64,000 bases of DNA, taken from Candidatus Magasanikbacteria bacterium UBA922 (GTDB lineage: Bacteria; Patescibacteriota; Patescibacteriia; Magasanikbacterales; UBA922). A model generated the notes under the pieces. The model searched no databases. It was not told where the DNA came from and saw nothing but the letters and a program-made list of their open reading frames with translations. The translations under genes were made by a program, and so were the position numbers. Positions within the stretch are counted from its first letter, which is position 1; every line of letters begins with the position of its first letter. Below are positions 13,956-34,429 of this stretch, piece after piece. The stretch spans positions 26,170 through 90,169 of the forward strand of contig DBDW01000009.1 of the NCBI GenBank assembly GCA_002293825.1. Reading direction: 5' to 3'.

Positions 13956-14212
13956 GTTAAAAAACCAAAAGGTAAAAAATAAAAAGCAAAAAGATAATTC
14001 GGGTCTTTATTTTTTATTCTTCAATCTTTTGCCTTTTTATATTAATTCAATGTCTGCTGAAAACCATTATAACATGATTTGCATGAGACATCCGGTTCCC
14101 GCGCACTGCAACAATGCTTTGCACGGGTCCCGTTTGACTCCTTGATAAACTACTCGAAGTAGCGTGAGTGCCGACTCGTGTGTTTATCCCTGAAAAGAAC
14201 TAGCGACCAACA

Positions 14213-15003
14213 TCAGGGTTGATAGAAATGTCGAGGTTCCCACCCCGAGATCACATTCTTCTGGCGAGGATTGAAAATCCCACCAAAGATGTTCTCATCC
14301 TTTCGAACCACATCATTCACGCCCTTGACCTCGATAAGCTGGGTATCCAAGCGCAGGAGGCTCGTCGTGGTTCTCGTACAGTTACGCACGACCTTGATGT
14401 CGAAGCCCTGGTCCTTCTTTGACTCGAGCGCAATCACCTCTTCGTCACTGAGGACGACAGAAATTTTTGCACTCTTCTCGCTGATGCGTTCGACGGCAGC
14501 GTCCCAACACCACTCCGAATTGTCCGTATTACAAAGGCGAATGTCACGCAGTCGATACGTGCGAGTCATATCACCATCAAAGAGACGGCGCTCAGCATCT
14601 TCGTTACCCATAATCTTAGGAATCTCGAACAGGAAATTGAATCCCGTCAAGGTGAGAGTGCCCGAACCACAGTTGGTAATGCGAACTCGGTACACAAGCC
14701 CTTCTTCTCCGCAGGTAAGCGGACCTCGATGTTGTATCTCTGGCACAGCCACAAAGTCCTTGGTGAGGCAAGCCTCATCCTTGGAACCAGTGACCGTCTC
14801 GAGAGCCATCTCAGACACATTGATCTCGCCAAAGATATATTCCTTCGACTTGACCCCTCCCTCCTCAGGAAGGGACGGGAACGACTCGATCGTCGAAATG
14901 AACGACCGATGAGAATGCTCGGGAGGCGATGGATCTTCACACCCTGAGTACTGAACACCCGTGAGGATGAAGACGAGACAGCAGATAATCTGTGACGGAA
15001 ACA
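14213..15003 (-). CDS. Hypothetical secreted protein in a GC-rich island
   Basis: ORF 14213..15055. The start is probably MFPSQIICCLVFILTGV, a signal peptide, preceded by AGGAG 9 nt upstream. GC and codon usage (ctg/gag/gtg/cgc) differ from the flanking genes. No known domain. Confidence 0.45.
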
Positions 15004-15156
15004 TGTGTAGTGACTCCTGATGACAGGTTGTCGAAGAATCCAAAATACACGACATGTGTATCCTGAAAACCGCAATAGTATACTAAAAAAACACCTTTTT
15101 GTCAAGGTGAGGAATAGATAAAACAAACACAAAAAATGATTATGTGATACAAAAAA

Positions 15157-15411
15157 TCAACGTGATCGATGAGGACATCCTGCCCAACAACATGGACGAC
15201 GCATACCACCAAGAAGTTTCGAACGCCCAACTTCTATTCGTCGAGCTCTAGTCTCTGGTTTCTTTGCATCCTCGATCCAACAGATCCATTCATTGCGCGC
15301 CACAGGAGTAATATCTTCCCACAAAGCTAAAATATGCGAAGAAGAAAGCAGCATACGACGCAGGTCGGGAGGAACGGTATGTACTACACCATGAGAGACC
15401 TTTTTATTCAT
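15157..15411 (-). CDS. YdeI/OmpD-associated (OmdA, bacteriocin-protection-like) domain protein
   Basis: LALWEDITPVARNEWICWIEDAKKPETRARRIE matches the OmdA/DUF1801 C-terminal motif as I recall it. An AAGGA RBS lies upstream. GC-rich. Confidence 0.45.
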   Translation of the reverse strand: MNKKVSHGVVHTVPPDLRRMLLSSSHILALWEDITPVARNEWICWIEDAKKPETRARRIEVGRSKLLGGMRRPCCWAGCPHRSR

Positions 15412-16024
15412 ACGCAGGATCCTTTCGGGCCATGTGATGTTCGATCACATGCATAGCCATGTCTGCGACTAATTTCAAGATCAAAAACAAGGACAATACC
15501 CCACCAAAAAATCCAAAGATAAGCGTAAGGTGCATCGGAATAATGCGCGCATAGGGACGAGCCATCACCGAACCGATTTTTTGTATATGAGTTTCACGAT
15601 GACGATAAAAAAGATATGAGAAAAAATGTGTAATGAAAAAAAGACCTGCACTAAGCATGATATAACGAAGTTCAGCAATACCCGGCTTTTCTCCAAACGT
15701 ATCCGTCATAATAAACGCCAAATAAATCAGATGAAAAACTCCGTAATGGAACAAAAAGAAAAAAGCAGAAAAATACCGAGTGGTCGAAGTAGGTGCAGCA
15801 GGACGCCCATTGAACCCAAATCCTTCAGTAGAAAATTCTTTGAGTTGAAGTATTCGGATAAAATTGAAAAACCCAATAATAATGCTTTGAAACCAATAAA
15901 CCAACAATACAGTGACAGGATTCCAATCTTCAGTGAATGCGAAATAGATTGTGACAATATTTGAGATGAGAAGTAACCAAAAAGAAGGGTCGACTAGTTG
16001 ACTTTTCGTAAAATATATACGCAT
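15404..16024 (-). CDS. Hypothetical polytopic membrane protein
   Basis: Six or more hydrophobic segments. It overlaps the downstream OmdA-like ORF by 8 nt. Confidence 0.4.
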   Translation of the reverse strand: MRIYFTKSQLVDPSFWLLLISNIVTIYFAFTEDWNPVTVLLVYWFQSIIIGFFNFIRILQLKEFSTEGFGFNGRPAAPTSTTRYFSAFFFLFHYGVFHLIYLAFIMTDTFGEKPGIAELRYIMLSAGLFFITHFFSYLFYRHRETHIQKIGSVMARPYARIIPMHLTLIFGFFGGVLSLFLILKLVADMAMHVIEHHMARKDPAYE

Positions 16025-16052
16025 ACGTCACAAAAATTACACGAGATTTTAT

Positions 16053-16137
16053 TGGTGCCGCAGGAGAGACTCGAACTCTCACACCTTTCGGTACGTGCTC
16101 CTAAGGCACGCGTGTATACCAATTTCACCACTGCGGC
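16053..16137 (-). tRNA. tRNA-Leu (anticodon UAG), type II with long variable arm, CCA encoded
   Basis: Hand-folded cloverleaf: acceptor gccgcag/ctgcggc, anticodon stem cgtgc/gcacg with loop cttagga, T-loop ttcgagt, 3' ACCA. Confidence 0.8.
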
Positions 16138-16332
16138 ATTATGCTATTTTCTCACATTACTTATATGAAAACAAGAAAAAGGGTGGAGTGAGTCAATCTG
16201 CTTTGTGTATTGATAGTCGAACCCACTGACAACTACACCGCCACAGAAATAACCCACTCCGCATTCACCCTACAAAATAATAGATAAAAAATCAACCCCA
16301 TCATATGACAGGGTTGATTAACATCTGTTAGG

Positions 16333-18561
16333 TTACGGTCTTCGAGGGCCCCGAGCGTGTCCTCCACGGAATCCTCCGCGATCACCATTTCCTCTTCGAG
16401 GACCACGATCTTCACGAGGTGGCTGTTCCACGTATCCCTCAGGTTTCGGCAACAATGCCTTCATCGAGAGATTCACTCGTCCGAGATTATCAATTTCTTT
16501 TACAATCACTTTCACCGTGTCACCAAGCTTCAAGACTTCAGACGGCTTATTGGTACGTTCCCATGCGATTTCACTCACATGTACCAGGCCATCTTTTCCT
16601 GGAAGAATTTCCACAAACGCACCAAAATCTTCAAGTCGACTCACCGTTCCTTCATAAGTCTCACCTGCGGTAACCTCATGAGTAAGGTCTTCAATCATTT
16701 TTATAGCTTTATTCATTCCATCAGAATCACTTGAAGTTACCATTACTCGACCATCCTGTTCAATATCAATCTGCACTCCTGTCTCATCAATAATCTTGTT
16801 GATGACTTTTCCACCTGGACCAATCACTTCACGAATCTTATCAGGATTAATCGTAATTGTAGTGATGCGTGGTGCATGAGTCGAGAGTTCTGTGCGAGGA
16901 GTAGCAATTCGTGCACGCATCACGTCGAGAATTTGAATTCGCGCATCACGAGCTTGAGCAATAGTCTGGTCCACAATATCCCAAATCAAACCATTGGTTT
17001 TGGTATCCATCTGAATTGCAGTAATTCCATCCACCGTTCCTGCAATCTTGAAATCCATTCCACCTGGACCATCCTCGACATCTTGTAAATCAGTAAGTAC
17101 TTTCCATTCACCTCGCTCATTTGAAGCTAACCCCATTGCAATTCCTGCAACTGCCTTTGTGATTGGCACTCCAGCTGCCATAAGAGAAAGCGTTGAACCA
17201 CACGCAGAAGCCATTGAACTAGAACCATTTGATCCCATAACTTCAGAAACCACACGAATGGTATATGGAAAATCAGCCTGTGCCGGTAATACTGGCTCAA
17301 GCGCACGCTCCGCAAGAGCTCCGTGTCCAATAGCTCGGCGTCCAGGGCCACGAATCGGAGAAACCTCACCGTATGTATATGGCGCATCATTGTAGTGATG
17401 CATATATCGTTTCGTACCATCTTCTTCCATACTGTCGAGTGTCTGCACATCCCCAGGGGCTCCGAGCGTAACCACTGAAAGTACCTGTGTATCACCACGC
17501 ATAAACATAGCGGAACCGTGTACACGAGGAAGAAGATCGATATCAGTCTGAAGCTCTCGAATTTCAGTCATAGTCCGACCATCCAATCGCTTGCCTTTTT
17601 CGAGAATGCATTTCGTTACCTCTTCTGCAACATATGATTTTACCTGACTAAGCGCCTTTTTAATTACATCTTCTTCAAAACCACGTGAGAGTAAATGCTC
17701 TTTACCACCTGTTTTGAGCATATCCATAGCACCATATCGATCGGCTCGAGTAATTTTTGGAGTATTAAACACCACCTCGTGTACATGTGATGCGACATAG
17801 TCACGAAATGCCATTTTTGCTTTATCAGCATCACTTAATTCAGCCGAAGTTTTTGAAGCATCTTTTTCTAATCCAACTTCTTTTTGAATTTGTGCAATAA
17901 GATCAATCACAGGCTTGAGTTCACGACAGCCCCATTTCATAGCTTCAAGCATCGTTGCTTCAGGCACCTCATGTGCCGCAGCCTCGACCATAACCAATTT
18001 TTCAGGAGTGCCTGCTACTACCAAATCAAGTTTTGAACACACCTCCATCTGACTTGATGTAATATTCAAAATAAATTCCCCATTTTGATCAAGACCAATA
18101 CGTGCCCCTGCAATCGGACCATTCCATGGCACTGATGAAATCGACAATACCGCACTTGCAGCCACCAATCCCACAATAGACGCATCGTGCTCACCATCAA
18201 CAGCAAGTGTAGTAATCACTACCTGTACATCCGTGCGAGTCGCATCATTAAATAATGGTCGAATTGCTCGATCGATCAAACGCGCCGAAAGAATGGCGTC
18301 TTCGCTCGGTCTGCCTTCACGCTTGATAAAGCGTGACCCTTTAATTTTCCCTGCTGCATACAATTTTTCTTCGAAATCTACCATGAGTGGAAAATAATCA
18401 ATTCCATCACGTGGCTCAGTACTCTTCATCACACTTGCAAGCACCACTGTATCGCCGTATCGCACGGTACATGACGCAAGCGCCTGAAGCGCTAATCGTC
18501 CAGTCTCAACAGTAAGTGTTCTCCCACCCCATTCAATTGACCATTGTTTTGGTTGTAACAT
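16333..18561 (-). CDS. pnp: Polynucleotide phosphorylase with an Arg/Gly-rich C-terminal tail
   Basis: 742 aa with two RNase PH domains, KH and S1 domains (GRVMVTS.., S1 VKVIVKEID), and a C-terminal RGG-like tail GPRRGNGDRGGFRGG. Confidence 0.9.
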   Translation of the reverse strand: MLQPKQWSIEWGGRTLTVETGRLALQALASCTVRYGDTVVLASVMKSTEPRDGIDYFPLMVDFEEKLYAAGKIKGSRFIKREGRPSEDAILSARLIDRAIRPLFNDATRTDVQVVITTLAVDGEHDASIVGLVAASAVLSISSVPWNGPIAGARIGLDQNGEFILNITSSQMEVCSKLDLVVAGTPEKLVMVEAAAHEVPEATMLEAMKWGCRELKPVIDLIAQIQKEVGLEKDASKTSAELSDADKAKMAFRDYVASHVHEVVFNTPKITRADRYGAMDMLKTGGKEHLLSRGFEEDVIKKALSQVKSYVAEEVTKCILEKGKRLDGRTMTEIRELQTDIDLLPRVHGSAMFMRGDTQVLSVVTLGAPGDVQTLDSMEEDGTKRYMHHYNDAPYTYGEVSPIRGPGRRAIGHGALAERALEPVLPAQADFPYTIRVVSEVMGSNGSSSMASACGSTLSLMAAGVPITKAVAGIAMGLASNERGEWKVLTDLQDVEDGPGGMDFKIAGTVDGITAIQMDTKTNGLIWDIVDQTIAQARDARIQILDVMRARIATPRTELSTHAPRITTITINPDKIREVIGPGGKVINKIIDETGVQIDIEQDGRVMVTSSDSDGMNKAIKMIEDLTHEVTAGETYEGTVSRLEDFGAFVEILPGKDGLVHVSEIAWERTNKPSEVLKLGDTVKVIVKEIDNLGRVNLSMKALLPKPEGYVEQPPREDRGPRRGNGDRGGFRGGHARGPRRP

Positions 18562-18738
18562 AGTCGCTATATATACTTAGCGAACGTATGATCATAGAGC
18601 GATAGATCGGGTAAGTCTGATAGACTATACTGACCTAGATGTCCTATGACCATGCATTCATTGATAAAAATACACAACACACGGCACTCGATATTCTGCA
18701 AAAAATATCATGTCCCACATGTCGTCTATCGACGCATC

Positions 18739-19308
18739 TTACCTGCGTTTTTTTCGATAATCCGCAATCAAAAACAAATCTTTACGCTCACTCAAATCCA
18801 TAAAATCATCAACCTCATCACGCAAAAGCGAAGATGTAGTTTCGCCAAATGCCGCAACTTCGACCTGTTTACCCATACTGCGCAAATATTCAACCAATGG
18901 TAAATAGTCCCCATCTCCAGACACAATCACAATTGCATCCAAACTTTGAGACAAACGAATAGCATCAACCGCAAGCCCCACATCCCAATCAGCTTTCTTC
19001 ATACCACTATTAAAAATCTGCAAATCTTTCTCACGAGTTTCAATACCCAAATTGTACAGTGCTTCAAAAAACGGCTGCTCATCCTGAGTTTCAGTCCGTA
19101 CTACATACGCAATCGCACGAATAAGCTTTCGATTCCCTACGGCCTCTTTTACAATTGCACCAAAATTGACCTTGCGTTGAAACAAATTCTTTGCAGAATA
19201 ATACATATTCTGCACATCAATAAACACCCCAATACGTTGATCGGGGTGTTTCAGAGGATTATAGTTAGGTTGTTTCTTCTGATTCTTCATGTGAGTCGGT
19301 TTCTTCAT
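18739..19308 (-). CDS. NYN-domain (LabA-like PIN) protein
   Basis: ORF 18739..19362. RIGVFIDVQNMYYS ... IVIVSGDGDYLPLVEYLR matches the NYN/LabA acidic motifs. The start is uncertain (an internal Met was chosen) and it overlaps the rpsO 3' end. Confidence 0.55.
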   Translation of the reverse strand: MKKPTHMKNQKKQPNYNPLKHPDQRIGVFIDVQNMYYSAKNLFQRKVNFGAIVKEAVGNRKLIRAIAYVVRTETQDEQPFFEALYNLGIETREKDLQIFNSGMKKADWDVGLAVDAIRLSQSLDAIVIVSGDGDYLPLVEYLRSMGKQVEVAAFGETTSSLLRDEVDDFMDLSERKDLFLIADYRKKRR

Positions 19309-19621
19309 CTTCGTCTTCAAGCTTATCAGCTTCAATAAACTGTTTTGCTTGTTTGAGATCAAGTTTCTTCACCAAGTCTTCATATGAAGCAGCGTTTTCA
19401 CGTTGCAAATATTTGAGTAATCGTCGACGTTCTCCTACTTTACGGAGAAGACCTCGGCGACTTGAGTGATCTTTTGGATGACTCTTCAGATGAGATGCAA
19501 GTTCTTCGATTTCCGCAGTCAGAATTGCAATCTGTACTTCGGTAGAACCAGTATCTCCCTCATGGGTCTGAAACTTCTTAATTAAACGTTGTTTTTTCTG
19601 CTTACTCAGCATAGCATGCAT
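19265..19621 (-). CDS. rpsO: 30S ribosomal protein S15 with an acidic C-terminal extension
   Basis: LSKQKKQRLIKKFQTHEGDTGSTEVQIAILT...RRGLLRKVGERRRLLKYL matches the S15 core. It carries an extra roughly 30-aa DE-rich tail. Sits upstream of pnp as in the classic rpsO-pnp arrangement. Confidence 0.8.
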   Translation of the reverse strand: MHAMLSKQKKQRLIKKFQTHEGDTGSTEVQIAILTAEIEELASHLKSHPKDHSSRRGLLRKVGERRRLLKYLQRENAASYEDLVKKLDLKQAKQFIEADKLEDEDEETDSHEESEETT

Positions 19622-19761
19622 TCATTATCGGGCCAGGCAAAAGGCATGTCTTGTGCGGTCCGTTCCGAAGCATTGTATTCACGCTCGGATAAATAATATA
19701 TAGAGAGTGTACCACAAAAAGGCCATATAGTCAAGACGAGGTTTGATATAAAAAACGAACA

Positions 19762-19795
19762 CCGGATACCTGCCCACAGCACAGTATCCGGTAAA
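19762..19795 (-). terminator. Rho-independent terminator downstream of the GC-rich membrane-protein gene
   Basis: ccggatac...gtatccgg hairpin followed by a T-run on the minus strand. Confidence 0.45.
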
Positions 19796-19803
19796 AGCAC
19801 TGA

Positions 19804-20547
19804 TCAGATGCCTGCAGTAGCCACAGCGTAAAACGCCACCGACCCTACACATGGCACCAAAAAATTATCATCGACGATCTTCGAGAAAAGATCACCGCCT
19901 TTCTCACACATCGACTCGAAAAACGCCGTACATGCTGCGGTTATAAGCACCGCAATCACGAGACGCACCGTCGAGAAATATGTAGGATACAACGGAAAAG
20001 CATCCTGCAGAGCCACACTCAGAAGCCCTGAAAAAGATGCCGCATAGAAGTATCCAGCCAACCCTGCCCACGTCTTCGTTCCCTGTTTCCAGACTCGACG
20101 GACACCGAATTTGATTCCAGACAGACGCGCAGCCGGATCACCAAATCCGAACATCACGACCGCAGGTACCACCGCCCAGATCGGAATTCCAATCATGAGC
20201 GGAATCATAACACCGAGTGTGAAATGCGCAGCCGTTGCAGGCATACCACGTTCGTGCATCCTGAGAATCTTGGTACGGAGCAGTAGCCGATCTTCGAGTA
20301 GTAGAAATAGTTTCTTCAACTTCGAAGATCGAGGTTCCCATTCACGTCGATGTACGAGCCAGTAATACAGTGGCAGTCGAACACCGAGATCGAGAGTAGA
20401 CAGCGTGACACCGACCACGAGTGCGACATGCACTTTTTCCGACTCACTGAACGGGAGCATCTGCCCGCAGATCAGCGCGAGAAGACCGATCGAAGCGTGT
20501 ACGACAGCACGTCCCCACTCAACTCCAATGTTGTAAACAGCTTCCAC
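19804..20547 (-). CDS. Polytopic membrane protein in a GC-rich island, possibly of the CTP-dependent dolichol-kinase / cytidylyltransferase-like family
   Basis: GTG start with GGAGGG RBS. About 52% GC against roughly 40% in the flanks. The C-terminal GFGDPAARLSGIKFG resembles the DGK/SEC59/CdsA-type motif. Only the island status is well supported. Confidence 0.35.
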   Translation of the reverse strand: MEAVYNIGVEWGRAVVHASIGLLALICGQMLPFSESEKVHVALVVGVTLSTLDLGVRLPLYYWLVHRREWEPRSSKLKKLFLLLEDRLLLRTKILRMHERGMPATAAHFTLGVMIPLMIGIPIWAVVPAVVMFGFGDPAARLSGIKFGVRRVWKQGTKTWAGLAGYFYAASFSGLLSVALQDAFPLYPTYFSTVRLVIAVLITAACTAFFESMCEKGGDLFSKIVDDNFLVPCVGSVAFYAVATAGI

Positions 20548-20642
20548 GAGACCCTCCGATAGCAGAAGTTACACATTCTTGTAACATTTTTAACACAAAA
20601 AAGCAAGGTTTCCCTTGCTTTTAATGATACTAGAAAGTATTA

Positions 20643-21293: not shown

Positions 21294-21357
21294 AGAAAAA
21301 AGTAATTAAGAAGAATGAAACGGTAGTATACACCACCGAGATAACTCTAGAAAAGAG

Positions 21358-22119: not shown

Positions 22120-22228
22120 AACATTTTCCTTTAACCTCGCTCGAAACGCCCGGTAGAAGGGTCTACCAGAGGAAAATATGTCTCGGCTGAGGGATTAATA
22201 AAAGTGTGGGGAGTGTAATGAAAAAAAC

Positions 22229-23858: not shown

Positions 23859-24782
23859 TTATTCTGTAGAAGATTTCATTAGAAACCTCTCAAACAAGGA
23901 ATTGACTTTAGCAGCACCTTGGTCCTTGTCTAAAATTCTACCATTTATCTCTTCCATCTTAAGGGAATGCACCCCATTCGAGTTCTCAATACTGACCATA
24001 CCAGTATCAACTGCAATAATCTTACCAACACGAAGTTTACCATCGTCACCGATAAAAGTTACAAAATCGTGTAATTGAAAATTTCGGTCACGCAAATCAA
24101 CATATTGCATGGATTTCTCTGGAAGATCAGGTTCAAAATAAGCAGTACTGATATAGACTGGTGTAACTATCCGCCCCCTGAGAAGAAACATATTAATAAT
24201 AAACAATCCACCAATAAAAATAGTAACGAGGAAAAAAGAAATAACAACGCTTTCAAAAAAGCGAATTACTAAATTCTTTCTTTTCAGCTTAAGAAATACA
24301 ATTACATACAATGGAAAAAGAACTGTGAGAAGAATTCTAAATGGTAAAAAAACTTTTGGAGTCGCAATCCACGCAAAAACAATAAGGATGCCTTGTAAGC
24401 CGAAAAGTGTGACAAACCCAGCAATCAAATATAGCTCAGGAAATACAAAGGTAATTGCAATTTGACTCAAAATTACCACAACAGCAGCAAAAAATATATA
24501 TTTCACCTTTAGAGAAGTAGAAAGAACATCGGTAACCTCAATCTCTTCCTCTCTAAGAGTGTTCCAACCTGTAACATCAGCAATCACTAATATAATCCAG
24601 AACACATATGGCACTACAGTTCCAATGCCTGGAACAGTATGTAATTGAAACAAAGAAAAGACAATAATTAATAGAACAAAAGAAATTAAGATAACCCCAA
24701 GTGCACGCTGATATGCCTTGCTATAGAGTACTTGTTCTCGCTCATCGACAGGCTTATGTAGAAACCACAAAATATTTTTCAT
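23859..24782 (-). CDS. Membrane protein with a cytoplasmic C-terminal domain (DUF2975-like?), paired with an XRE regulator
   Basis: Six predicted TM helices. It is followed by an XRE HTH gene in the same orientation, which is the usual DUF2975 / y4mF-type pairing. Confidence 0.3.
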   Translation of the reverse strand: MKNILWFLHKPVDEREQVLYSKAYQRALGVILISFVLLIIVFSLFQLHTVPGIGTVVPYVFWIILVIADVTGWNTLREEEIEVTDVLSTSLKVKYIFFAAVVVILSQIAITFVFPELYLIAGFVTLFGLQGILIVFAWIATPKVFLPFRILLTVLFPLYVIVFLKLKRKNLVIRFFESVVISFFLVTIFIGGLFIINMFLLRGRIVTPVYISTAYFEPDLPEKSMQYVDLRDRNFQLHDFVTFIGDDGKLRVGKIIAVDTGMVSIENSNGVHSLKMEEINGRILDKDQGAAKVNSLFERFLMKSSTE

Positions 24783-24800
24783 ACAGATGCATTAGATAAG

Positions 24801-25004
24801 TTAGGGTAAAAAACGAAAAATGTCTTCAATTTTTACATTAAAAAGCTCAGCACACTTATAGGCAAGATAGAGGGTTGGTTGATATTTCCCCTGCTCTATG
24901 GCATTAATGGTCTGTCGAGTAACACCCAGTTTGAGTGCCAACTCTTCTTGGGTCATATCCTGCCGCACCCGCAAATCTTTCAAATTACAGATAATGCTAG
25001 GCAT
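24801..25004 (-). CDS. XRE-family (Cro/C1-type) HTH transcriptional regulator
   Basis: LRVRQDMTQEELALKLGVTRQTINAIEQGKYQPTLYLAYKCAELFNVKIEDIF is a canonical HTH_XRE. The start is probably the internal Met. Confidence 0.7.
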   Translation of the reverse strand: MPSIICNLKDLRVRQDMTQEELALKLGVTRQTINAIEQGKYQPTLYLAYKCAELFNVKIEDIFRFLP

Positions 25005-25076
25005 AGGTAATGTAAAATACTTTTTACACAATCTATTCGTAATGTAAAATACTTTTTACATATTGTCAAGTATCAA

Positions 25077-25949: not shown

Positions 25950-25996
25950 TAGGTTCAGGCATCCGCACTGGTGCGGAGCTACACAGGAGAACACCA

Positions 25997-26389
25997 ATGA
26001 AAGTTCGAGGAGACCTCAGCATTCAGAATCGGACGATCATCTTCAGCACAAACATTGAAATCACGCGAAACCCACTCAACATCACGTTCCCGATGAAGAA
26101 AAAAGACTGGGGACGACTGCATGCAGAAAGCACATCTGGCAAACGCCTGATTGAGCACTTGATGTCCGTGATCGAAATCGAGAAGGTACTGATCGATCCA
26201 TACCAGGTCGAGATCATTTTCAAAGACACGCTCTCACGCACACAAGAAAGAAAATTCGTAGAAGCAATGATGGAGGCAATGGGCACGATCATGAAGATCA
26301 GGTCCGAGCACGTCATCGTGACGAATCGTGCGGTAGACGAAGATGTCCTACCAGAACTGAGCCAACCCACATCCGAGGAATCGGACTGA
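25997..26389 (+). CDS. Hypothetical protein, first gene of a GC-rich island
   Basis: ORF 25946..26389. The start was chosen at MKVRGDL with AGGAG 8 nt upstream. About 50% GC. No recognisable domain. Confidence 0.4.
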   Translation: MKVRGDLSIQNRTIIFSTNIEITRNPLNITFPMKKKDWGRLHAESTSGKRLIEHLMSVIEIEKVLIDPYQVEIIFKDTLSRTQERKFVEAMMEAMGTIMKIRSEHVIVTNRAVDEDVLPELSQPTSEESD

Positions 26390-26408
26390 CAGAGGAAGGA
26401 GAAAGAAA

Positions 26409-26759
26409 ATGAAGTGGTCAGAACTCTACGCTGGCATGACAGTGATCCCCGAGATCATCCTGTCCGAGCGAATCGAAGCCTACCTGGAATACAGGGAAGG
26501 CACCTATCCTGCCGAGACGAGAGATGAGCTCAACCTCACGGTGAAGCTGCTCGAGCTCAAGAACAACCCGCACGAAGTGATCCTCAAGTTCGACACTTCG
26601 GGCGTGGAATTACCAGAGGGCATGAAACACGGTATCTATGACATCGTGTTCAAATGGAAAAACGGTGGCGTGACACTGAAAGCCGAGACACTGCCCGCAA
26701 CCATGTTCGAAGATGCGAAAGTGCCACACGCACTGCTCGTAAAACTCGGTCTGAAGTAG
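26409..26759 (+). CDS. Hypothetical protein, second gene of a GC-rich island
   Basis: Strong RBS AGGAAGGAGAAA. About 54% GC. No recognisable domain. Confidence 0.4.
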   Translation: MKWSELYAGMTVIPEIILSERIEAYLEYREGTYPAETRDELNLTVKLLELKNNPHEVILKFDTSGVELPEGMKHGIYDIVFKWKNGGVTLKAETLPATMFEDAKVPHALLVKLGLK

Positions 26760-26816: not shown

Positions 26817-26840
26817 TTGCACCATAACGGTGCTTTTTTA
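26817..26840 (+). terminator. Rho-independent terminator closing the GC-rich cassette
   Basis: gcaccataacggtgc hairpin followed by TTTTTTA. Confidence 0.5.
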
Positions 26841-28707: not shown

Positions 28708-28726
28708 ACTACGCTAGTAAAACAAG

Positions 28727-29083
28727 TTAATTCATTATCGTATTAAAAGAAGTTGAAAAAGTGGGATTGGTAAGTGCCTGATAGCACTCAATAACCATAT
28801 CTTCAGTAAGTGCCTCTCGATGACGAAAACGGACACTATCCTCATAGACGAGATCACTCATCATTCCAATGAGCCCAAGTCCGAGCTGTGTACTCCCGAT
28901 AAAAAAAATCAAGGAATTATGACACATGACACAGGTCGTATGTAGTACATGTGAACTTTCAGTAGATTCTACAGTTTTGATATGTTCGTGTTCGAACACT
29001 GTAGCGCACACCGGGCATTCACGCATGACTTTGAACTGGGACCGAAGTGAATCGAGAGAAAATTGTGGTTGTGGTCTACCCAT
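28727..29083 (-). CDS. Hypothetical Cys-containing (putative zinc-ribbon) protein
   Basis: CPVC ... CVMC pairs. No other recognisable motif. Confidence 0.3.
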   Translation of the reverse strand: MGRPQPQFSLDSLRSQFKVMRECPVCATVFEHEHIKTVESTESSHVLHTTCVMCHNSLIFFIGSTQLGLGLIGMMSDLVYEDSVRFRHREALTEDMVIECYQALTNPTFSTSFNTIMN

Positions 29084-29113
29084 ACAAAGCTGAAATACTA
29101 TAGCAAAAGAATA

Positions 29114-30244
29114 TCAACTCGTCAAGAGAGAGCGTGAGCTTGATCGAGCAGCACTCTGAGCGATACCAATCAAGAGAAAATTCGCAATCAAAGACGAACC
29201 TCCATAACTCACCAAAGGTAATGTAACACCAGTTACCGGTAAAAGTCCAATCGCAGCTCCAACATTGATAATGACCTGTAATAAAAACATAAGAGCAATA
29301 CCAAGCGCAACATACGAAGAAAACTCTGCACGAGCTCGATACGCAATAAGACTAAGTCGAAACAAGAGAAGACCATACAACACCAATACCAAACACGTAC
29401 CGATAAACCCAAGCTCTTCTCCAATAACTGAAAAAATAAAGTCTGTCTGAGCTTCAGGCAAAAAATGAAGTTGTGATTGTGACCCAAACCCAAGACCTCG
29501 TCCAAAAATTCCACCTGCACCAATTGCAATAATTGACTGTGTAACATTATACCCAGAACCCAACGGATCTCGTTCAGGCTCAAGAAATGTCAAAATACGA
29601 TCTTTTTGATAGGGTTGAAGTAAAAACATCCATGCACAGATAGAGATAATAACACCAGACATCACGAGTCCGATCGTATATCGTTTTGGTATACCAGCCA
29701 ACAGTATCATACCAAACCATACCCCCACCAAAACCATAGACGAGCCAAGGTCAGGTTGCAACATAATCAATCCAGCCAAAAGACCAGCTAATGTAGTCAT
29801 CACCAATAAAAATTGCCATCGCTGAAACTGACGAGCCTGCCGATCAATCCGCCACGCCAGAAAAATAATCAAAGCAATTTTTGCAAATTCAGCGGGCTGA
29901 AATGAAAAACCAAACACTCGAAACCAGCCTGTCGTACCACGAATCGTGGTACCAAAAAATAATACCGAGACAAGCAGTATTACGGCAGTAAGATAAAAAA
30001 ACTTAGCATGCGCTTCATAAAAGGTAATATGCACCCGAGAAAAAATAAATAAACCAACAAATCCGATACCCAGTGCCAAAACCTGTCTCGAAAAAAAACT
30101 CAACCCTTCACCTCGAGAAAGATCTACACTATAAATTGCAGCAAGACCGATACACGAAAGAATCAATGCGGTAAAAAGTAAAATCGCATCATACCCCCGA
30201 AATGTCTTAACCAAAAAATCAAGCATACGAAACAACAAGTTCAC
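29114..30244 (-). CDS. SEDS-family peptidoglycan glycosyltransferase (FtsW/RodA)
   Basis: Ten-TM SEDS pattern with conserved PxxDxGS..LPxxGxxLPxxSYGGSS at the C-terminus. Confidence 0.75.
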   Translation of the reverse strand: MNLLFRMLDFLVKTFRGYDAILLFTALILSCIGLAAIYSVDLSRGEGLSFFSRQVLALGIGFVGLFIFSRVHITFYEAHAKFFYLTAVILLVSVLFFGTTIRGTTGWFRVFGFSFQPAEFAKIALIIFLAWRIDRQARQFQRWQFLLVMTTLAGLLAGLIMLQPDLGSSMVLVGVWFGMILLAGIPKRYTIGLVMSGVIISICAWMFLLQPYQKDRILTFLEPERDPLGSGYNVTQSIIAIGAGGIFGRGLGFGSQSQLHFLPEAQTDFIFSVIGEELGFIGTCLVLVLYGLLLFRLSLIAYRARAEFSSYVALGIALMFLLQVIINVGAAIGLLPVTGVTLPLVSYGGSSLIANFLLIGIAQSAARSSSRSLLTS

Positions 30245-30297
30245 CTAATAGGTACCATACGTGAAAAAAGAATTCAAATATAGACCCCACACACATG

Positions 30298-31311
30298 TCA
30301 ATTCATGAAAACCTGTGAATCAAACACATTGACCAAAGGTTCAATAATGACACCGTCAATCAAAACGTCTTCAGAAAAAACACCAAGAGAAACTTGACGC
30401 ACTTCCCCACCCATAAATTGAGAAAGAGTCACAGGAGCGACACCGATCAATTGTCCTGCACGTTCAAATCTCACTAATACCGGAAATTCCCAAAAATCAA
30501 ATACTGAATTATTGGTAATGGAAAAAGACACAATAGGCGCTGCAATATTTTCAGTCTGATTGGTAGGAAGATATGAAAAATCACTAACACTCGTATCAAT
30601 TCGCTGAGTATAATATGCGACCGGATCAGAAATGATATGTGGATCTATGCGTTTCCATGTCACCGACACAATGTCGAGCACAGCAGAATTCAAAACATCC
30701 CCTGATTCATATCCGAGAAAAAAAAGTGAGCGCTGAGTATTCGGCAAAACCAGTGCCTCACGTGTCTCAGTAACGCCACGAGGTAATGTAAATCGATAAG
30801 AAACTTCTGCAATCCAATTACGATTAGGGTTATTCACTTCAGCAAAAATATCATACTGACCTTCTACTCCAGGAAAAATACGTGTGGCCGTAAACGAAAG
30901 ATCTTGTGGCTGAAAACGCAACCCGACATTCGTCGGTAAATACGAATATGATAAGTTTTTCAAATTTGCCCGATCCACCTGATAATCAAAAATAGCATAC
31001 TTCCCAATAAAAAAGAGGCTCGTGCCGAGCGTACCTACAGACCACACAGTCAATACCGTGATCACCACCGTGCGCACAGTCGCACGATGTTTCGCATACC
31101 ACGTTGCAGCACGAAGCGACTGATTGGAAAATTCACCAGTCGGATCTTCATATCGATCCAATAATGATGGTTTGTTATTAAACATAGTACATACTAGTAT
31201 AGCATAAAAAAGTACAATACAGAACGCACACAAAATATAGTAGGTATAAGCGTAAATTTTTTCCAAAAAGAAATCATTCGTCACACCAAAAATTACACGA
31301 TCCGTATTCAC
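30298..31311 (-). CDS. Hypothetical N-terminally membrane-anchored extracytoplasmic protein
   Basis: One or two N-terminal TM helices followed by a large domain with no recognised motifs. Confidence 0.35.
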   Translation of the reverse strand: MNTDRVIFGVTNDFFLEKIYAYTYYILCAFCIVLFYAILVCTMFNNKPSLLDRYEDPTGEFSNQSLRAATWYAKHRATVRTVVITVLTVWSVGTLGTSLFFIGKYAIFDYQVDRANLKNLSYSYLPTNVGLRFQPQDLSFTATRIFPGVEGQYDIFAEVNNPNRNWIAEVSYRFTLPRGVTETREALVLPNTQRSLFFLGYESGDVLNSAVLDIVSVTWKRIDPHIISDPVAYYTQRIDTSVSDFSYLPTNQTENIAAPIVSFSITNNSVFDFWEFPVLVRFERAGQLIGVAPVTLSQFMGGEVRQVSLGVFSEDVLIDGVIIEPLVNVFDSQVFMN

Positions 31312-31418
31312 AGATCCCCCACCCAGACTTTACGACTTAGGCCCTCCATGCTAAACTCTCTACCGTACGCAAGCCTTTTAAGCATTTCAGGCCTTTGTGG
31401 CCTCTCAAGCCGTCTTTT

Positions 31419-33464
31419 ATGTCCAAAACAGCAAAAGTAAACTCATCATACAGTGCAAAAAATATTCAAGTACTTGAAGGATTAGCAGCAGTGCGCAAAC
31501 GACCAGGAATGTACATCGGCTCTACAGGTGCCCCAGGTCTACACCATCTCATCTGGGAAGTGGTTGACAATTCGATTGACGAAGCAATGGCTGGACACTG
31601 TGATCAAATTACCATCAAATTATTGCCCGATCATTGGATTGAAGTAACAGACAATGGACGTGGTATTCCTGTAGATATTCATCCACAAAAAAAAGTAAGT
31701 GCACTCGAACTCGTACTCTCGACCCTTCATGCCGGAGGTAAATTTGGCGAAGAAGATGGTGGATACAAAGTATCCGGAGGTCTACATGGTGTCGGTGTGT
31801 CAGTAGTAAACGCACTCTCGACCGATCTGATTGCTACCGTACATCGTGATGGAAAAATTTGGGAACAACGATACAAAATCGGTAACCCTCAAAACAAAGT
31901 AAAAGCAATCGGCACGACAAAAACCACCGGAACTACGATTGCATTTCGTGCAGATGACTCAATTTTTGAAACCATTGACTACGAATGGAAATATATCATC
32001 GACCATATCAGACAGCAGACCTATCTCAATAAAGGTGTGCGTATTGTAATTATCGACGAACGCAGCGAAGAAGAACGAAAAAAAGACAAAACCGCACTTC
32101 CATTCAAAAAAAATACTCATCAATTCTTTTTTGAAGGAGGAATCGAGAGTTATATTCGCCACATCAATAAAAACAAGGAGCCAAAACACGAAAGTATTTT
32201 CTATACTGAAAAAACAGTAGATAATACAATCGTAGAAATTGCACTGCAATACACAGGAGACTTCACTGAATCACTCCACGCATTTACCAATAACATCACC
32301 AATCCAGATGGCGGTACACATGTCTCAGGATTTCGTACAGCACTCACAAGAACATTGAATACCTACGCTCGAAACAAAGGAATGCTCAAAGAAAAAGACG
32401 GCAATCTTACGGGAGAAGATGTGCGTGAAGGACTAAGTACAATCATCTCAGTAAAAACCCCAAATCCTCAATTCGAGGGACAGACCAAAGCAAAATTGGG
32501 AAATCCAGAAGTAAAACCAGCGGTAGAATCTGTCTTTTCTGAGCAATTCATGATCTTCCTCGAAGAACACCCGAAAGACGCTGAAGCAATCATCGGACAA
32601 TGTATGATTGCGGCAAAAGCTCGTGCGGCAGCAAAAATGGCACGCGACACCGTACTCCGCAAAAGTGCCTTGGAAGGATTTACCTTACCAGGAAAACTTG
32701 CAGACTGCTCCAGCAGAAAACCGGAACGCTGTGAACTCTACATCGTAGAGGGAGACTCAGCAGGCGGTAGTGCAAAACAAGGTCGTGATCGAAATACTCA
32801 AGCAATCCTCCCACTTCGTGGTAAAGTCTTGAATGTAGAACGAGCACGACTCGACAAAATTCTCACAAACAATGAATTGAAGTCACTCATCATTGCAATG
32901 GGAACCAATATCGGAGAAATGTTTGAAATCGCACGTCTAAGATACCACAAAATCATCATCATGACCGATGCGGACGTCGATGGATCACATATCCGCACCC
33001 TCCTCCTCACCCTCTTCTTCCGCTACTTCCCCGATCTCATCTACCAGGGACACATCTACGTAGCACAGCCACCACTTTTCAGTATCAAGAAAGGCAAAGA
33101 AGTAACCTGGATCTACAATGAGACCGCGCTCAATGACTACAAAAAGAAATTCGGAATTACAGACGAAGACATGCAGGTAGTCGAGGAAGAGACTGATGTA
33201 GACGCTCCAGCACCCGAAGTAGTCGAAAGTAAAGCTGGAAAATCAAAGCTCAACATTCAACGATATAAAGGTTTGGGAGAAATGAATCCAGAACAACTCT
33301 GGGAAACAACCATGAATCCAGAAAACCGAGTGTTGAAACGTGTCACTATCGAAGATGCAGAAAAAGCTAGTGAGACCTTCGACATTCTCATGGGAAGCGA
33401 AGTCGCTCCTCGCAAAAAGTTTATCCAAACTCATGCGAAGAATGTGAAGAACTTGGATATATAA
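31419..33464 (+). CDS. gyrB: DNA gyrase subunit B
   Basis: ORF 31395..33464. The real start is probably MSKTAKVN. GHKL ATPase motifs, Toprim EGDSAGG, and C-terminal PLRGK. There is no long enterobacterial insertion. Confidence 0.9.
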   Translation: MSKTAKVNSSYSAKNIQVLEGLAAVRKRPGMYIGSTGAPGLHHLIWEVVDNSIDEAMAGHCDQITIKLLPDHWIEVTDNGRGIPVDIHPQKKVSALELVLSTLHAGGKFGEEDGGYKVSGGLHGVGVSVVNALSTDLIATVHRDGKIWEQRYKIGNPQNKVKAIGTTKTTGTTIAFRADDSIFETIDYEWKYIIDHIRQQTYLNKGVRIVIIDERSEEERKKDKTALPFKKNTHQFFFEGGIESYIRHINKNKEPKHESIFYTEKTVDNTIVEIALQYTGDFTESLHAFTNNITNPDGGTHVSGFRTALTRTLNTYARNKGMLKEKDGNLTGEDVREGLSTIISVKTPNPQFEGQTKAKLGNPEVKPAVESVFSEQFMIFLEEHPKDAEAIIGQCMIAAKARAAAKMARDTVLRKSALEGFTLPGKLADCSSRKPERCELYIVEGDSAGGSAKQGRDRNTQAILPLRGKVLNVERARLDKILTNNELKSLIIAMGTNIGEMFEIARLRYHKIIIMTDADVDGSHIRTLLLTLFFRYFPDLIYQGHIYVAQPPLFSIKKGKEVTWIYNETALNDYKKKFGITDEDMQVVEEETDVDAPAPEVVESKAGKSKLNIQRYKGLGEMNPEQLWETTMNPENRVLKRVTIEDAEKASETFDILMGSEVAPRKKFIQTHAKNVKNLDI

Positions 33465-33465
33465 A

Positions 33466-33497
33466 AAATAAACAACCGCTTACGCGGTTGTTTTGTA
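33466..33497 (+). terminator. Rho-independent terminator after gyrB
   Basis: aacaaccgcttacgcggttgtt hairpin followed by TTTGT. Confidence 0.55.
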
Positions 33498-33564
33498 ATA
33501 TAAGTTAGTTGAGGGGTCGGACGCATTGTTGCAATCCGCCCCCTCTCGTCGACACACTAGCCCT

Positions 33565-34368
33565 CTACCGAAGGAGTTCATCCTTCAGCTTTCGAAGCCC
33601 GGGGACGTACGGAAGTCCTGTGGACAGAAACTTAGCATGAAGCGCACGCTTCAAGCCAACTAGTCCAGTCTTCTTGTAATCACTGCAAAAGTCGAGAAAA
33701 CACTCCCAACCCTGCGCGACAGCAAATGCACATTCCCGATCGTAGGCCTCGACCTCCCTCTTAAACCAAACTCTTACCACCTCATCACTCAGAGAATCAG
33801 TCACACGGAGCGGGCCGAATTCTTTCGATGCAGACTCCTCTCCATACTGACTCACAAATTCCTTGTACTGCAGATAATGTACATACTCATGCAGAACAAT
33901 GAGCTGAAGAAGTTGTTTAGGCGTCTGTGGATTATACATCGCTTGTAGCGATATGTGCATGATAGGTGTACTACCTTTCCCCTCGATAGAGCGAACCATG
34001 AACAATGCAATAGTCGCCCCGCCTCCAAGTCCATGGTCCTCGAGATTAAGCCAAAGAACGCGTTCGTCGATGAGACGGAACATATCCTCTCTGATCTCAC
34101 GATCAGGATGCGAGAGCACTAGATCCTTGAGAATCATACTCGGATCTTCACTCACGATCTTGCGAGGTACACTAGTTGCAGCCAGAACTTCGCACGAGTT
34201 CACGGGCTGATTTGAAGGAGGGCTACTGATCGTACCCCTCACACCCGCGCTCTTGGTCTGTGTAACCTCTTTAACGACCACCAACACGACCACGATGCCG
34301 AAGACGATGAGGAACCATTTCCACCACTCCTGATCACTGGAATTCTTGATGTTAGTACGACGAGCCAT
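33565..34368 (-). CDS. Membrane-anchored putative zinc metallopeptidase (HExxH) in a GC-rich island
   Basis: N-terminal TM anchor. LHEYVHYLQ contains an HExxH motif. AGGAG RBS. About 50% GC with G/C-ending codons. Confidence 0.4.
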   Translation of the reverse strand: MARRTNIKNSSDQEWWKWFLIVFGIVVVLVVVKEVTQTKSAGVRGTISSPPSNQPVNSCEVLAATSVPRKIVSEDPSMILKDLVLSHPDREIREDMFRLIDERVLWLNLEDHGLGGGATIALFMVRSIEGKGSTPIMHISLQAMYNPQTPKQLLQLIVLHEYVHYLQYKEFVSQYGEESASKEFGPLRVTDSLSDEVVRVWFKREVEAYDRECAFAVAQGWECFLDFCSDYKKTGLVGLKRALHAKFLSTGLPYVPGLRKLKDELLR

Positions 34369-34429
34369 GAGTTTCTCCTATCTTTGTTGATGAGCACCCT
34401 AATGAAGAACATTCTTCAAAGGGACCAAA

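What the first reader, a model, noticed from the sequence alone, without database searches (positions are those of the whole stretch)
13960..34400. Four short GC-rich islands whose genes have strong Shine-Dalgarno sites absent from the housekeeping genes around them
Four segments stand out: about 14.2-15.4 kb (secreted protein plus OmdA-like), 19.8-20.55 kb (membrane protein with GTG start), 25.95-26.8 kb (two unknown genes) and 33.5-34.4 kb (HExxH metallopeptidase). By eye they run at roughly 50% GC against roughly 40% in the flanks. They use G/C-ending codons (ctg, gag, gtg, cgc). Every gene in them is preceded by AGGAG or GGAGG 5-10 nt from the start. Native genes such as rplK, nusG, gyrB, pnp and rpmE show essentially no SD sequence. 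Two independent compositional signals point the same way, so recent horizontal acquisition from higher-GC donors is the simplest explanation.
Basis: partly seen in the sequence, partly recalled or inferred. Interest (0 to 1): 0.62.

Follow-up and report, generated by a model that had tools for sequence, protein, structure and literature searches.

The report
GC-rich, Shine-Dalgarno-led accessory gene cassettes
Five small genes in this Magasanikbacteria (candidate phyla radiation) genome use different codon and translation-start signals from all their neighbours; they are real, fast-evolving accessory cassettes that sit in the same slots in related genomes and are swapped between relatives, not recent one-off imports.

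Summary
Their GC3 is 0.52-0.70 against 0.334±0.040 for 52 native genes (z 4.5-9.1). All have AGGAG or GGAGG 5-9 nt before the start, while native genes have no more SD than random positions. The OmdA-like gene is native in every respect and does not belong.

A third signal separates the classes: 85% of native genes have T at position -1 of the start codon, and none of the five do.

"Recent acquisition by this genome" is only partly right. Four of the five have homologues in the same slots in genus-level relatives, also GC3-rich and SD-led, although neutral sites are near saturation. The loci are hypervariable and laterally exchanged. The 33.5-34.5 kb cassette is 90-96% identical to that of a relative whose flanking genes are 59-88% identical (dS 0.16 vs about 1.2). 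Genomes with 94-96% identical pnp carry alleles only 26-50% identical.

Across about 160 related loci, GC3-rich genes are SD-led and lack T(-1) (p about 1e-18, replicated).

Best reading: an accessory cassette class with a foreign expression dialect, imported from GC-richer SD-using bacteria, probably other Patescibacteria, then exchanged among relatives. What keeps GC3 high is unresolved.

The parts
14213..15004 (-). ISL1 ORF (263 aa): N-terminal hydrophobic signal ending in ...YSGC, so a secreted or lipoprotein-like protein with no recognised family
   Evidence: GC3 0.598, z 6.6. No Pfam, PHROG or PADLOC family. Positional homologues lie between pnp/DUF6498 and smr in L013, L014, L016 and L018, with GC3 0.63-0.69 and a conserved AGGAG. 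dN/dS is 0.20 against L014.
15014..15018 (-). ISL1 Shine-Dalgarno AGGAG, 9 nt before the ATG
   Evidence: The same AGGAG is present in four orthologues.
15077..15105 (-). ISL1 promoter, TTGACA-17-TATACT
   Evidence: 11 of 12 consensus matches. It shares the 13-mer ACCTTGACAAAAA with the ISL4 promoter.
19804..20547 (-). ISL2 ORF (247 aa, GTG start): polytopic membrane protein with the CdsA/CarS (CTP-transferase, dolichol-kinase-like) fold
20553..20557 (-). ISL2 Shine-Dalgarno GGAGG, 5 nt before the GTG
   Evidence: GGAGG is conserved in L011, L015, L016 and L018.
19751..19792 (-). ISL2 intrinsic terminator (accggatac...gtatccggt followed by a T run)
   Evidence: Read from the sequence.
25997..26389 (+). 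ISL3a ORF (130 aa), unknown function, SD AGGAG at 25985-25989
   Evidence: GC3 0.618, z 7.1. Homologues lie between prmC and DUF3048 in L014, L016 and L017 (29-34% identity, GC3 0.52-0.68).
26409..26759 (+). ISL3b ORF (116 aa), unknown function, SD GGAAGGAG at 26394-26401, followed by hairpins up to about 26845
   Evidence: GC3 0.701, z 9.1. Found only in near-identical strains. A weak PHROG/DUF7270 match. Terminator at 26819-26833.
33565..34368 (-). ISL4 ORF (267 aa): N-terminal TM anchor, then an extracytoplasmic domain with invariant HExxH (H160, E161, H164) and four invariant Cys
33500..34480 (-). ISL4 cassette as a transferable unit: promoter at 34428-34462, SD at 34375-34379, the ORF, and a 3' hairpin at about 33511-33545
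   Evidence: 90-96% nt identity to L092 and 80-98% to L093 inside these limits. Flanking secE, nusG, rplK, gyrB and the intergenic DNA are 43-88% identical. dS is 0.16 inside, against 1.29 for nusG and 1.16 for rplK.

Best explanation
The four "islands" are five genes in four small accessory cassettes wedged between core operons of a Candidatus Magasanikbacteria (Patescibacteria/CPR) genome. ISL1 and ISL4 each carry their own sigma-70-type promoter, a Shine-Dalgarno site, an ORF and a 3' hairpin. ISL2 has an SD and a terminator. ISL3a and ISL3b each have an SD and follow prmC.

They belong to a clade-wide minority class of genes written in a different expression dialect from the resident genome. 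The class is GC3-rich and SD-led, and it lacks the resident start context, which is U at -1 with no SD.

**Shown.**
- The class is accessory, mostly without recognised families, under purifying selection, and evolving several-fold faster than its neighbours.
- The slots are old and shared with relatives.
- Their contents are replaced laterally between lineages.

**Inferred.**
- The dialect comes from GC-richer, SD-using donors, most plausibly other Patescibacteria.
- Cassettes then spread among relatives by recombination and slowly decay toward AT in the resident genome.
- The SD is kept by selection because a GC-rich message lacking U(-1) and an unstructured AU-rich start region cannot use the resident SD-independent initiation route.

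**Likely roles (inferred).** Cell-envelope functions under diversifying pressure: a secreted or lipoprotein-like protein, a CdsA/dolichol-kinase-fold membrane enzyme, and a membrane-anchored HExxH protein.
For: **Organism and class.**
- pnp relatives are Magasanikbacteria.
- GC3 z-scores are 4.5-9.1.
- SD appears only on the five genes.
- T(-1) is present in 47 of 55 native genes and 0 of 5 island genes, p = 2e-4.

**Generality.**
- In pnp-anchored loci, SD occurs in 41 of 63 GC3-rich genes against 118 of 864 others, p = 8e-19. At genus level the counts are 15 of 27 against 12 of 153.
- The SD signal is not a composition artefact: 62% at true 5' ends against 14% in internal control blocks.
- T(-1) occurs in 10-19% of GC3-rich genes against 61-67% of the rest.
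- The pattern replicates in nusG-anchored metagenome loci: SD 40% vs 9%, and T(-1) 27% vs 77%.

**Accessory nature.**
- Each Pfam family hit matched only one or two of 82 GC3-rich genes, so the large majority have none.
- The five window proteins have none.
- dN/dS is 0.10-0.31, against 0.02-0.10 for neighbours.

**Old slots.** Syntenic GC3-rich, SD-led homologues exist for ISL1, ISL2, ISL3a and ISL4.

**Lateral exchange.**
- ISL4 dS is 0.16, against 1.2-1.3 in flanks, with sharp cassette boundaries in two relatives.
- Genomes with 94-96% identical pnp carry ISL2 alleles 32-50% identical and ISL1 alleles 26-29% identical. L018's ISL2 is 85% identical to that of L015, whose pnp is only 84% identical.
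- The gyrB-secE slot is empty in many relatives and filled by unrelated GC3-rich SD-led genes in L104, L118 and L135.

**Donor plausibility.** Named ISL4-family members are Patescibacteria. In the 54%-GC contig L097 the homologue has native-like GC3 (0.69 among 0.41-0.81, most 0.64-0.81) and an SD, as do several neighbouring genes.

**Decay in this genome.** There are 13 synonymous S>W changes and 0 W>S on the window's ISL4 branch. The outgroup supports the polarity 8 to 3.

**Basis for U(-1).** The window's initiator tRNA has A37. U(-1):A37 pairing has been demonstrated in E. coli (PMC10018350).
Against: - On the three other ISL4 branches, synonymous changes run 9 S>W to 15 W>S. That implies an equilibrium GC3 of about 0.7 rather than decay.
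- ISL2-family genes are GC3-elevated even in a genome with median GC3 0.51.
- A single ancient import followed by neutral decay would require implausibly high starting GC3 for ISL1 and ISL3a, given 4-fold-site near-saturation. So something beyond import and decay may be acting.
- No donor has been identified for ISL1, ISL2 or ISL3.
- The GC-richer Magasanikbacteria sampled here do not use SD much.
- The 16S anti-SD could not be read.
- No integrase, flanking repeats or other transfer machinery was seen.
Confidence: 0.5

Rival explanations
1. A resident, selected "second dialect". The GC3-rich SD-led genes would form a functional regulon. Their translation would depend on SD/anti-SD pairing, available perhaps only under some conditions, as with the few SD-led genes of Bacteroidetes. 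Their G/C-ending codons, rare in this genome, would tune elongation. Both features would be held in place by selection in each lineage.
For: - SD motifs are conserved across orthologues that share only 25-55% protein identity.
- High GC3 persists although dS in flanks is about 1-2.4.
- Synonymous changes run 9 S>W to 15 W>S on three ISL4 branches.
- ISL2-family genes are elevated in 14 of 14 genomes, including a GC-rich one.
- SD and GC3 are tightly coupled, and the native U(-1) is excluded.
- The cassette promoters match the resident consensus.
Against: - The window lineage shows pure AT-ward decay in ISL4, 13 to 0.
- ISL2 GC3 ranges from 0.46 to 0.78 and does not track host GC3.
- The genes are mostly accessory, patchily distributed and laterally replaced.
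- No shared function or shared membrane localisation was found: 42% vs 34% with a TM segment, p = 0.13.
Confidence: 0.22
2. GC-biased gene conversion at recombination hot spots. These slots recombine far more often than their surroundings, and biased repair of heteroduplexes drives GC3 up. The SD then arises secondarily, because the start region has become GC-rich.
For: - Recombination is frequent and local at exactly these loci.
- The shift is mainly at third positions, and both G and C rise.
- There is W>S excess on some branches.
Against: - The effect is +0.2 to +0.47 in GC3 and is gene-exact, far larger than anything I know to be reported for bacteria (my recollection, not tested).
- Whole-cassette replacement between alleles 30-50% identical leaves little heteroduplex to convert.
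- Promoters and 5'UTRs inside the exchanged unit stay AT-rich.
Confidence: 0.1
3. One reading: each island was acquired recently by this particular genome from an unrelated higher-GC donor.
For: - ISL3b has no homologue outside near-identical strains.
- The composition and start signals are atypical.
Against: - Syntenic homologues of ISL1, ISL2, ISL3a and ISL4 occur in relatives with saturated synonymous divergence.
- Homologues are confined to the genus or to Patescibacteria.
- The cassette promoters fit the resident consensus.
Confidence: 0.08
4. Phage- or mobile-element-borne morons or defence genes dropped into the chromosome.
For: - The units are small and self-contained, each with its own promoter and terminator.
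- There is a weak PHROG hit for ISL3b, E = 6e-4.
Against: - No relatives were found in IMG/VR for ISL1, ISL2, ISL3b or ISL4.
- There are no PADLOC hits.
- No integrase, att-like repeats or phage genes lie nearby.
Confidence: 0.05

Closest known systems
Compositionally atypical horizontally acquired genes (genomic islets, "atypical genes" of gene finders) and amelioration
   Same: - Gene-exact GC3 and codon-usage deviation.
- Mostly genes without recognised families.
- Patchy distribution.
- AT-ward synonymous decay on the window's ISL4 branch.
   Different: - The anomaly is shared by positional homologues across a genus and, for ISL2, across distant members of the phylum, despite saturated neutral sites.
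- It is coupled to a switch of translation-initiation signal.
- There is no integrase, tRNA target or flanking repeat.
Hypervariable surface-structure loci replaced by recombination between conserved flanks (O-antigen or capsule loci; hypervariable islands of marine picocyanobacteria and SAR11)
   Same: - Deeply divergent alleles occupy one slot in near-identical backgrounds.
- Alleles are shared across species.
- The products are envelope-associated.
- Composition differs from the core genome.
   Different: - Each unit is a single 0.4-0.9 kb gene, not a multi-gene cluster.
- The ISL4 similarity tract ends at the cassette edges rather than inside the flanking genes.
- The compositional shift is toward GC, whereas I recall those classical loci being typically AT-rich (my recollection).
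SD-poor genomes with a few SD-led genes (Bacteroidetes, where the anti-SD is sequestered and rpsU keeps a strong SD)
   Same: - Native genes have no SD above the random level.
- A small minority of genes has strong, conserved SD sites.
   Different: - Here the native signal is U at -1 rather than an A-rich Kozak-like context.
- The SD-led genes are accessory and GC3-rich, not ribosomal.
- Anti-SD status and any sequestration were not tested.
U(-1):A37 quadruplet pairing between mRNA and initiator tRNA (E. coli, chloroplasts; PMC10018350)
   Same: - U immediately 5' of the start codon.
- The window's initiator tRNA has A37.
   Different: - In E. coli it is a modest modulator used alongside SD.
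- Here it appears to be the near-universal native start signal, in 85-100% of genes.
- It is absent from the SD-led class.

Membership tests
Classical genomic island | Integrase or recombinase, insertion next to a tRNA gene, and flanking direct repeats | tested here: not met
   No integrase or transposase appears among the called genes. No flanking repeats were found. Only ISL1 lies within 1.1 kb of a tRNA-Leu gene, and two native genes separate them.
Classical genomic island | Composition deviating from the host genome | tested here: met
   GC3 z-scores are 4.5-9.1.
Integron gene cassette | An attC recombination site at the 3' end, a promoterless ORF, and a nearby intI gene | tested here: not met
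   ISL1 and ISL4 have their own strong promoters. The 3' hairpins share no common sequence beyond one 11-mer present in two of them, which is within chance expectation. No integrase was found.
CTP_transf_1 superfamily (CdsA, CarS, dolichol/phytol kinase) - ISL2 | Polytopic fold of CdsA/CarS | tested here: met
CTP_transf_1 superfamily (CdsA, CarS, dolichol/phytol kinase) - ISL2 | Sequence match to PF01148 at the curated threshold | tested here: not met
   The window protein does not match. Eight of 13 homologues match only weakly, best E = 3e-4. A PDB profile search was negative.
CTP_transf_1 superfamily (CdsA, CarS, dolichol/phytol kinase) - ISL2 | Catalytic activity and substrate (CTP-dependent kinase or cytidylyltransferase) | not testable with these tools
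   The only lead is one source's annotation of a homologue as dolichol kinase.
Zincin (HExxH) metallopeptidase - ISL4 | Invariant HExxH on a helix | tested here: met
   H160, E161 and H164 are invariant in five homologues and lie in helix 151-175 of the model.
Zincin (HExxH) metallopeptidase - ISL4 | Zincin fold with a third metal ligand | tested here: inconclusive
Bacterial lipoprotein - ISL1 | Lipobox [LVI][ASTVI][GAS]C after a hydrophobic segment, with lgt present in the genome | tested here: inconclusive
   The N-terminus is MFPSQIICCLVFILTGVQYSGC. Positions -1 (G) and -2 (S) fit the lipobox, but -3 is Y. An LGT gene is present at 7630-8415.
SD-led translation initiation | A purine-rich motif complementary to CCUCC, 5-10 nt upstream of the start, conserved in orthologues | tested here: met
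SD-led translation initiation | An anti-SD (CCUCC) at the 3' end of the organism's 16S rRNA | not testable with these tools
   No 16S is present in the window or in any fetched locus. The literature reports the motif missing in about half of Parcubacteria, mostly those lacking uL1 (PMC9297842). This genome encodes uL1 at 39572-40255.

The most novel reading that the evidence does not exclude
Magasanikbacteria, and perhaps many Patescibacteria, may run two mutually exclusive translation-initiation systems in one cell. The core genome would use an SD-independent mode based on U(-1) pairing with A37 of the initiator tRNA. A small, fast-evolving, laterally exchanged set of envelope and accessory genes would use a selectively maintained SD-led, GC3-rich mode. 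Those genes could then be translated under different conditions or by a differently equipped ribosome pool. More speculatively, they would stay expressible after transfer into SD-using cells, such as the host of an episymbiont.
Probability: 0.18. Interest if true: 0.8.

Novelty: new variant of a known kind. Interest (0 to 1): 0.57.

Why it matters
Candidate phyla radiation bacteria are mostly uncultured, and how they express genes is inferred largely from sequence.

Three points follow from this case.
- The core genome of a whole CPR phylum seems to start translation with a U(-1) signal and no Shine-Dalgarno site, which affects gene calling and start prediction in these genomes.
- GC3, SD and U(-1) together give a simple, sharp marker for the flexible, laterally exchanged genes in these tiny genomes. 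These are likely the genes facing hosts and phages.
- The anomaly persists over saturated neutral divergence. That makes a testable case for asking whether foreign expression signals are merely slow to erode or are actively kept.

Tried and rejected
- **OmdA-like gene as part of island 1.** Rejected: GC3 0.306, native T(-1), and only a weak AAAGGA.
- **SD enrichment as a by-product of GC-rich sequence.** Rejected: the internal-block control gives 14% against 62% at true 5' ends.
- **Non-coding GC-rich RNA elements with accidental ORFs.** Rejected: there is strong three-base periodicity (GC3 well above GC2), dN/dS is 0.1-0.3, the protein features are conserved, and Rfam has no hits.
- **A membrane-protein-specific effect.** Rejected: TM content is 42% vs 34%, p = 0.13, and native membrane proteins are AT-rich.
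- **Phage or defence origin.** No support from PHROGs, PADLOC or IMG/VR.
- **A shared cassette-end motif (TGCAACAATGC).** Its frequency is at chance level. The shared 13-mer ACCTTGACAAAAA is just the resident strong-promoter consensus.
- **More stable start-region mRNA structure in islands.** This is only a trend: mean -9.3 vs -5.9 kcal/mol, p = 0.075, n = 5.
- **Concatenated query for ISL1 + ISL3a + ISL3b.** It returned only two ISL1 relatives and did not even recover the self-matches, so it says little about ISL3a and ISL3b.
- **Retrieving the 16S.** This failed. It is not in the window, not in about 1.7 Mb of fetched loci, and not in the reachable parts of the source contig.
- **Structure libraries and metagenome scan.** afdb50 was unavailable. 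Foldseek against PDB was uninformative for ISL2. The metagenome scan with the ISL4 profile found nothing.
Full report
**Organism and setting.** The window is 41.7% GC. It carries a 23S-5S rRNA pair without a 16S, plus five tRNA genes. It derives from a 112-kb JGI metagenome contig, and the same gene order appears in independent ENA and Logan assemblies. The closest pnp relatives are Candidatus Magasanikbacteria, in the Patescibacteria/CPR.

**Checking the observation.** GC peaks of 0.47-0.53 sit at the four stated places.

I curated 57 genes in the window. The five island genes have GC3 of 0.52-0.70, against 0.334 ± 0.040 for 52 native genes whose maximum is 0.428. That gives z-scores of 4.5-9.1, while GC1 and GC2 hardly move. 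Twenty further genes from the same contig, outside the window, all have GC3 of 0.23-0.35.

Each of the five has AGGAG or GGAGG 5-9 nt before its start codon. Predicted pairing energy with the canonical anti-SD is -6.9 to -10.0 kcal/mol. Native starts have a median of +0.1, and 5.7% reach -6, the same as random positions at 6.5%.

The observation therefore stands for five genes, not six.

At 100-nt resolution the GC rise covers the ORFs and their 3' hairpins. The promoters and leaders stay AT-rich.

**A third discriminating signal.** Native genes have T immediately before the start codon in 47 of 55 cases in the window, and in 20 of 20 cases in the extra contig sequence. None of the five island genes does (p = 2e-4).

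The window's tRNA-Met has the hallmarks of an initiator: a C1:A72 mismatch and three G-C pairs in the anticodon stem. It also has A37. Pairing of U(-1) with A37 has been demonstrated in E. coli (PMC10018350). The resident genome thus appears to use a U(-1), SD-independent start signal, and the island genes use SD instead.

**What the five proteins are.**
- None matches a Pfam family at E ≤ 0.01, and none matches a PADLOC family at E ≤ 0.1. In PHROGs the only match below E 0.05 is ISL3b to an unannotated family, E = 6e-4.
- ISL1 has an N-terminal hydrophobic signal ending in YSGC.
- ISL4 has a TM anchor followed by a domain with invariant HExxH and four invariant cysteines. An exhaustive HMMER search finds about 150 clusters of similar length. 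The members that carry names are from Patescibacteria.
- ISL3a and ISL3b are small proteins of unknown function.
- dN/dS of 0.10-0.31 shows the island genes measured (ISL1, ISL2 and ISL4) are real genes under purifying selection. They evolve several-fold faster than their neighbours, which have dN/dS of 0.02-0.10.

**They are not recent arrivals in this genome.** In genus-level relatives (pnp 82-92% identical) homologues sit in the same slots:
- ISL2 between tsf and rpsO;
- ISL1 between pnp/DUF6498 and smr;
- ISL3a between prmC and DUF3048;
- ISL4 between secE/nusG and gyrB.

In almost every relative these homologues are again GC3-rich, at 0.52-0.69 against about 0.30 for neighbours. Nearly all are SD-led, and the motif itself is conserved while the surrounding bases differ.

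Four-fold sites of the flanking native genes are close to saturation: 43-54% identical against 30-36% expected by chance, with dS about 1-2.4.

The ISL2 family also lies just upstream of rpsO in six distant Magasanikbacteria (pnp 65-72% identical). It is always GC3-elevated relative to its own genome, for example 0.71 vs 0.24 and 0.78 vs 0.32, and it is SD-led in all of them.

**But the loci are hypervariable and laterally exchanged.**
- Genomes L013, L014, L017 and L018 have pnp 94-96% identical. Yet their ISL2 alleles are 32-50% identical and the three ISL1 alleles among them (L013, L014, L018) are 26-29% identical.
- L018's ISL2 is 85% identical to that of L015, whose pnp is only 84% identical. 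L014's ISL1 is closest to the window's.
- The ISL4 cassette (about 33500-34480) is 90-96% identical at the nucleotide level to L092 and 80-98% to L093. The adjacent secE, nusG, rplK, gyrB and intergenic DNA are only 43-88% identical.
- dS is 0.16 inside the cassette, against 1.29 for nusG and 1.16 for rplK. That is a recent transfer limited to the cassette.
- In many other Magasanikbacteria the gyrB-secE junction is empty. In others it holds unrelated, oppositely oriented, GC3-rich SD-led genes (L104, L118, L135).
- Relatives also carry other non-homologous GC3-rich genes in the same gaps.

**Generality.** I pooled about 80 pnp-anchored loci, masking rRNA.
- Genes with GC3 at least 0.15 above their locus median have an SD in 41 of 63 cases, against 118 of 864 for the rest (p = 8e-19). 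Within the genus the counts are 15 of 27 against 12 of 153.
- Internal control blocks inside GC3-rich genes give only 14%, against 62% at true 5' ends, so the SD signal is not a composition artefact.
- T(-1) is found in 10-19% of GC3-rich genes against 61-67% of the rest, even with noisy start calls.
- An independent set of nusG-anchored metagenome loci replicates both results: SD 40% vs 9%, p = 0.003, and T(-1) 27% vs 77%, p = 9e-5.
- Each Pfam family hit matched only one or two of 82 such genes, so most have none. Those that do are mostly scattered metabolic enzymes and metallopeptidases.
- The class is not enriched in membrane proteins.

**Origin and maintenance.** A homologue of ISL4 lies in a 54%-GC Patescibacteria contig where its GC3 (0.69) is typical. 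Several genes there, including the homologue, have strong SD sites. GC-richer, SD-using Patescibacteria are therefore plausible donors.

On the window's own ISL4 branch, synonymous changes are 13 S>W and 0 W>S, and the outgroup supports this polarity 8 to 3. That is the pattern expected for decay toward the resident composition.

On the other three branches the counts are 9 S>W to 15 W>S, which implies a high equilibrium GC3. ISL2-family genes are elevated even in a GC-rich host. Import followed by exchange and decay therefore explains much of the data but not all of it. Selection or biased gene conversion acting on these loci cannot be excluded. I rank them as rivals, at 0.22 and 0.10.

The SD is probably under selection in any case, since it is conserved over divergences that erased most of the protein similarity. 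A reasonable functional link is that a GC-rich message without U(-1) and without an AU-rich unstructured start cannot use the resident initiation route. The start regions of the five genes are on average more structured, but with n = 5 this is only a trend (p = 0.075).

**Caveats.**
- The 16S anti-SD could not be read. The literature reports loss of the motif in about half of Parcubacteria, mainly the lineages lacking uL1 (PMC9297842). This genome encodes uL1.
- Start sites in the pooled analyses are heuristic.
- The polarised counts are small.
- No transfer machinery was identified.

**Verdict.** It is wrong that they are recent imports specific to this genome. This is a new variant of a known kind, namely compositionally atypical flexible genes, and it has an unusual coupling to a switch of translation-start signal.

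Noticed in passing
window-wide; initiator tRNA at 59406-59480: Native genes have T at position -1 of the start codon in 85% of cases, and in 20 of 20 cases in adjacent contig sequence. Position -2 is mostly C or G. There is no SD. The tRNA-Met here is an initiator (C1:A72 mismatch, GGG:CCC anticodon stem) with A37, which fits U(-1):A37 quadruplet pairing as the resident start signal. The bias is clade-wide.
   Followed up: partly
window 9891-13226 (23S) and 9713-9819 (5S): The 23S gene spans 3336 nt against a 2925-nt model, so it carries about 400 nt of insertion. No 16S is linked to it. The nearest upstream gene is an Smr-domain ORF at 13677-13955.
   Followed up: no
window 23859-25060: An AT-rich (GC 0.35) two-gene module lies between prfA and prmC: a 307-aa membrane protein and a 67-aa HTH regulator. 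It is absent from otherwise near-identical strains (L005, L006). Two perfect 22-nt direct repeats, GTAATGTAAAATACTTTTTACA, sit at 25007-25028 and 25039-25060 and look like operators. Accessory genes written in the native AT-rich dialect therefore also exist.
   Followed up: partly
window ~25950-26020 vs L005: Strain L005 is about 100% identical to the window from the 5' end of ISL3a rightwards through ftsW. To the left it is only 50-86% identical (prmC) and 81% (prfA). A recombination breakpoint therefore falls at the cassette edge.
   Followed up: partly
window 31374-31395, 34781-34802, 35436-35474; inverted copies at 35366-35417: A 22-nt motif, CCTTTTAAGCATTTCAGGCCTT, recurs directly upstream of gyrB, nusG and rplK, with inverted copies in the nusG-rplK spacer. 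It may be a shared regulatory or promoter element of these core genes.
   Followed up: no
window 22120-22140 (rpsB leader) and relatives L011, L014-L018: rpsB is the one native gene with a conserved SD-like leader, GAGGTTAAAGGAAAATGTT-ATG. It is present in all relatives and comes together with a native T(-1). It may be an autoregulatory leader of the rpsB-tsf operon.
   Followed up: no
window 54604-54894: A 96-aa ORF called by JGI lies in the 716-nt gap between the ribonucleotide reductase gene and ruvB. It has GC3 0.495 but no SD. There is no Rfam match in this gap at E <= 1. It may be a spurious ORF or an unrecognised leader element.
   Followed up: partly
L092 6904-7707; L017 7988-8713; L015 5836-6198; L018 3082-3471: Relatives carry additional GC3-rich genes (0.55-0.68) in the same inter-operon gaps, with no detectable homology to the window's cassettes. 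Some have clear SD sites. This suggests the gaps are general landing sites.
   Followed up: partly
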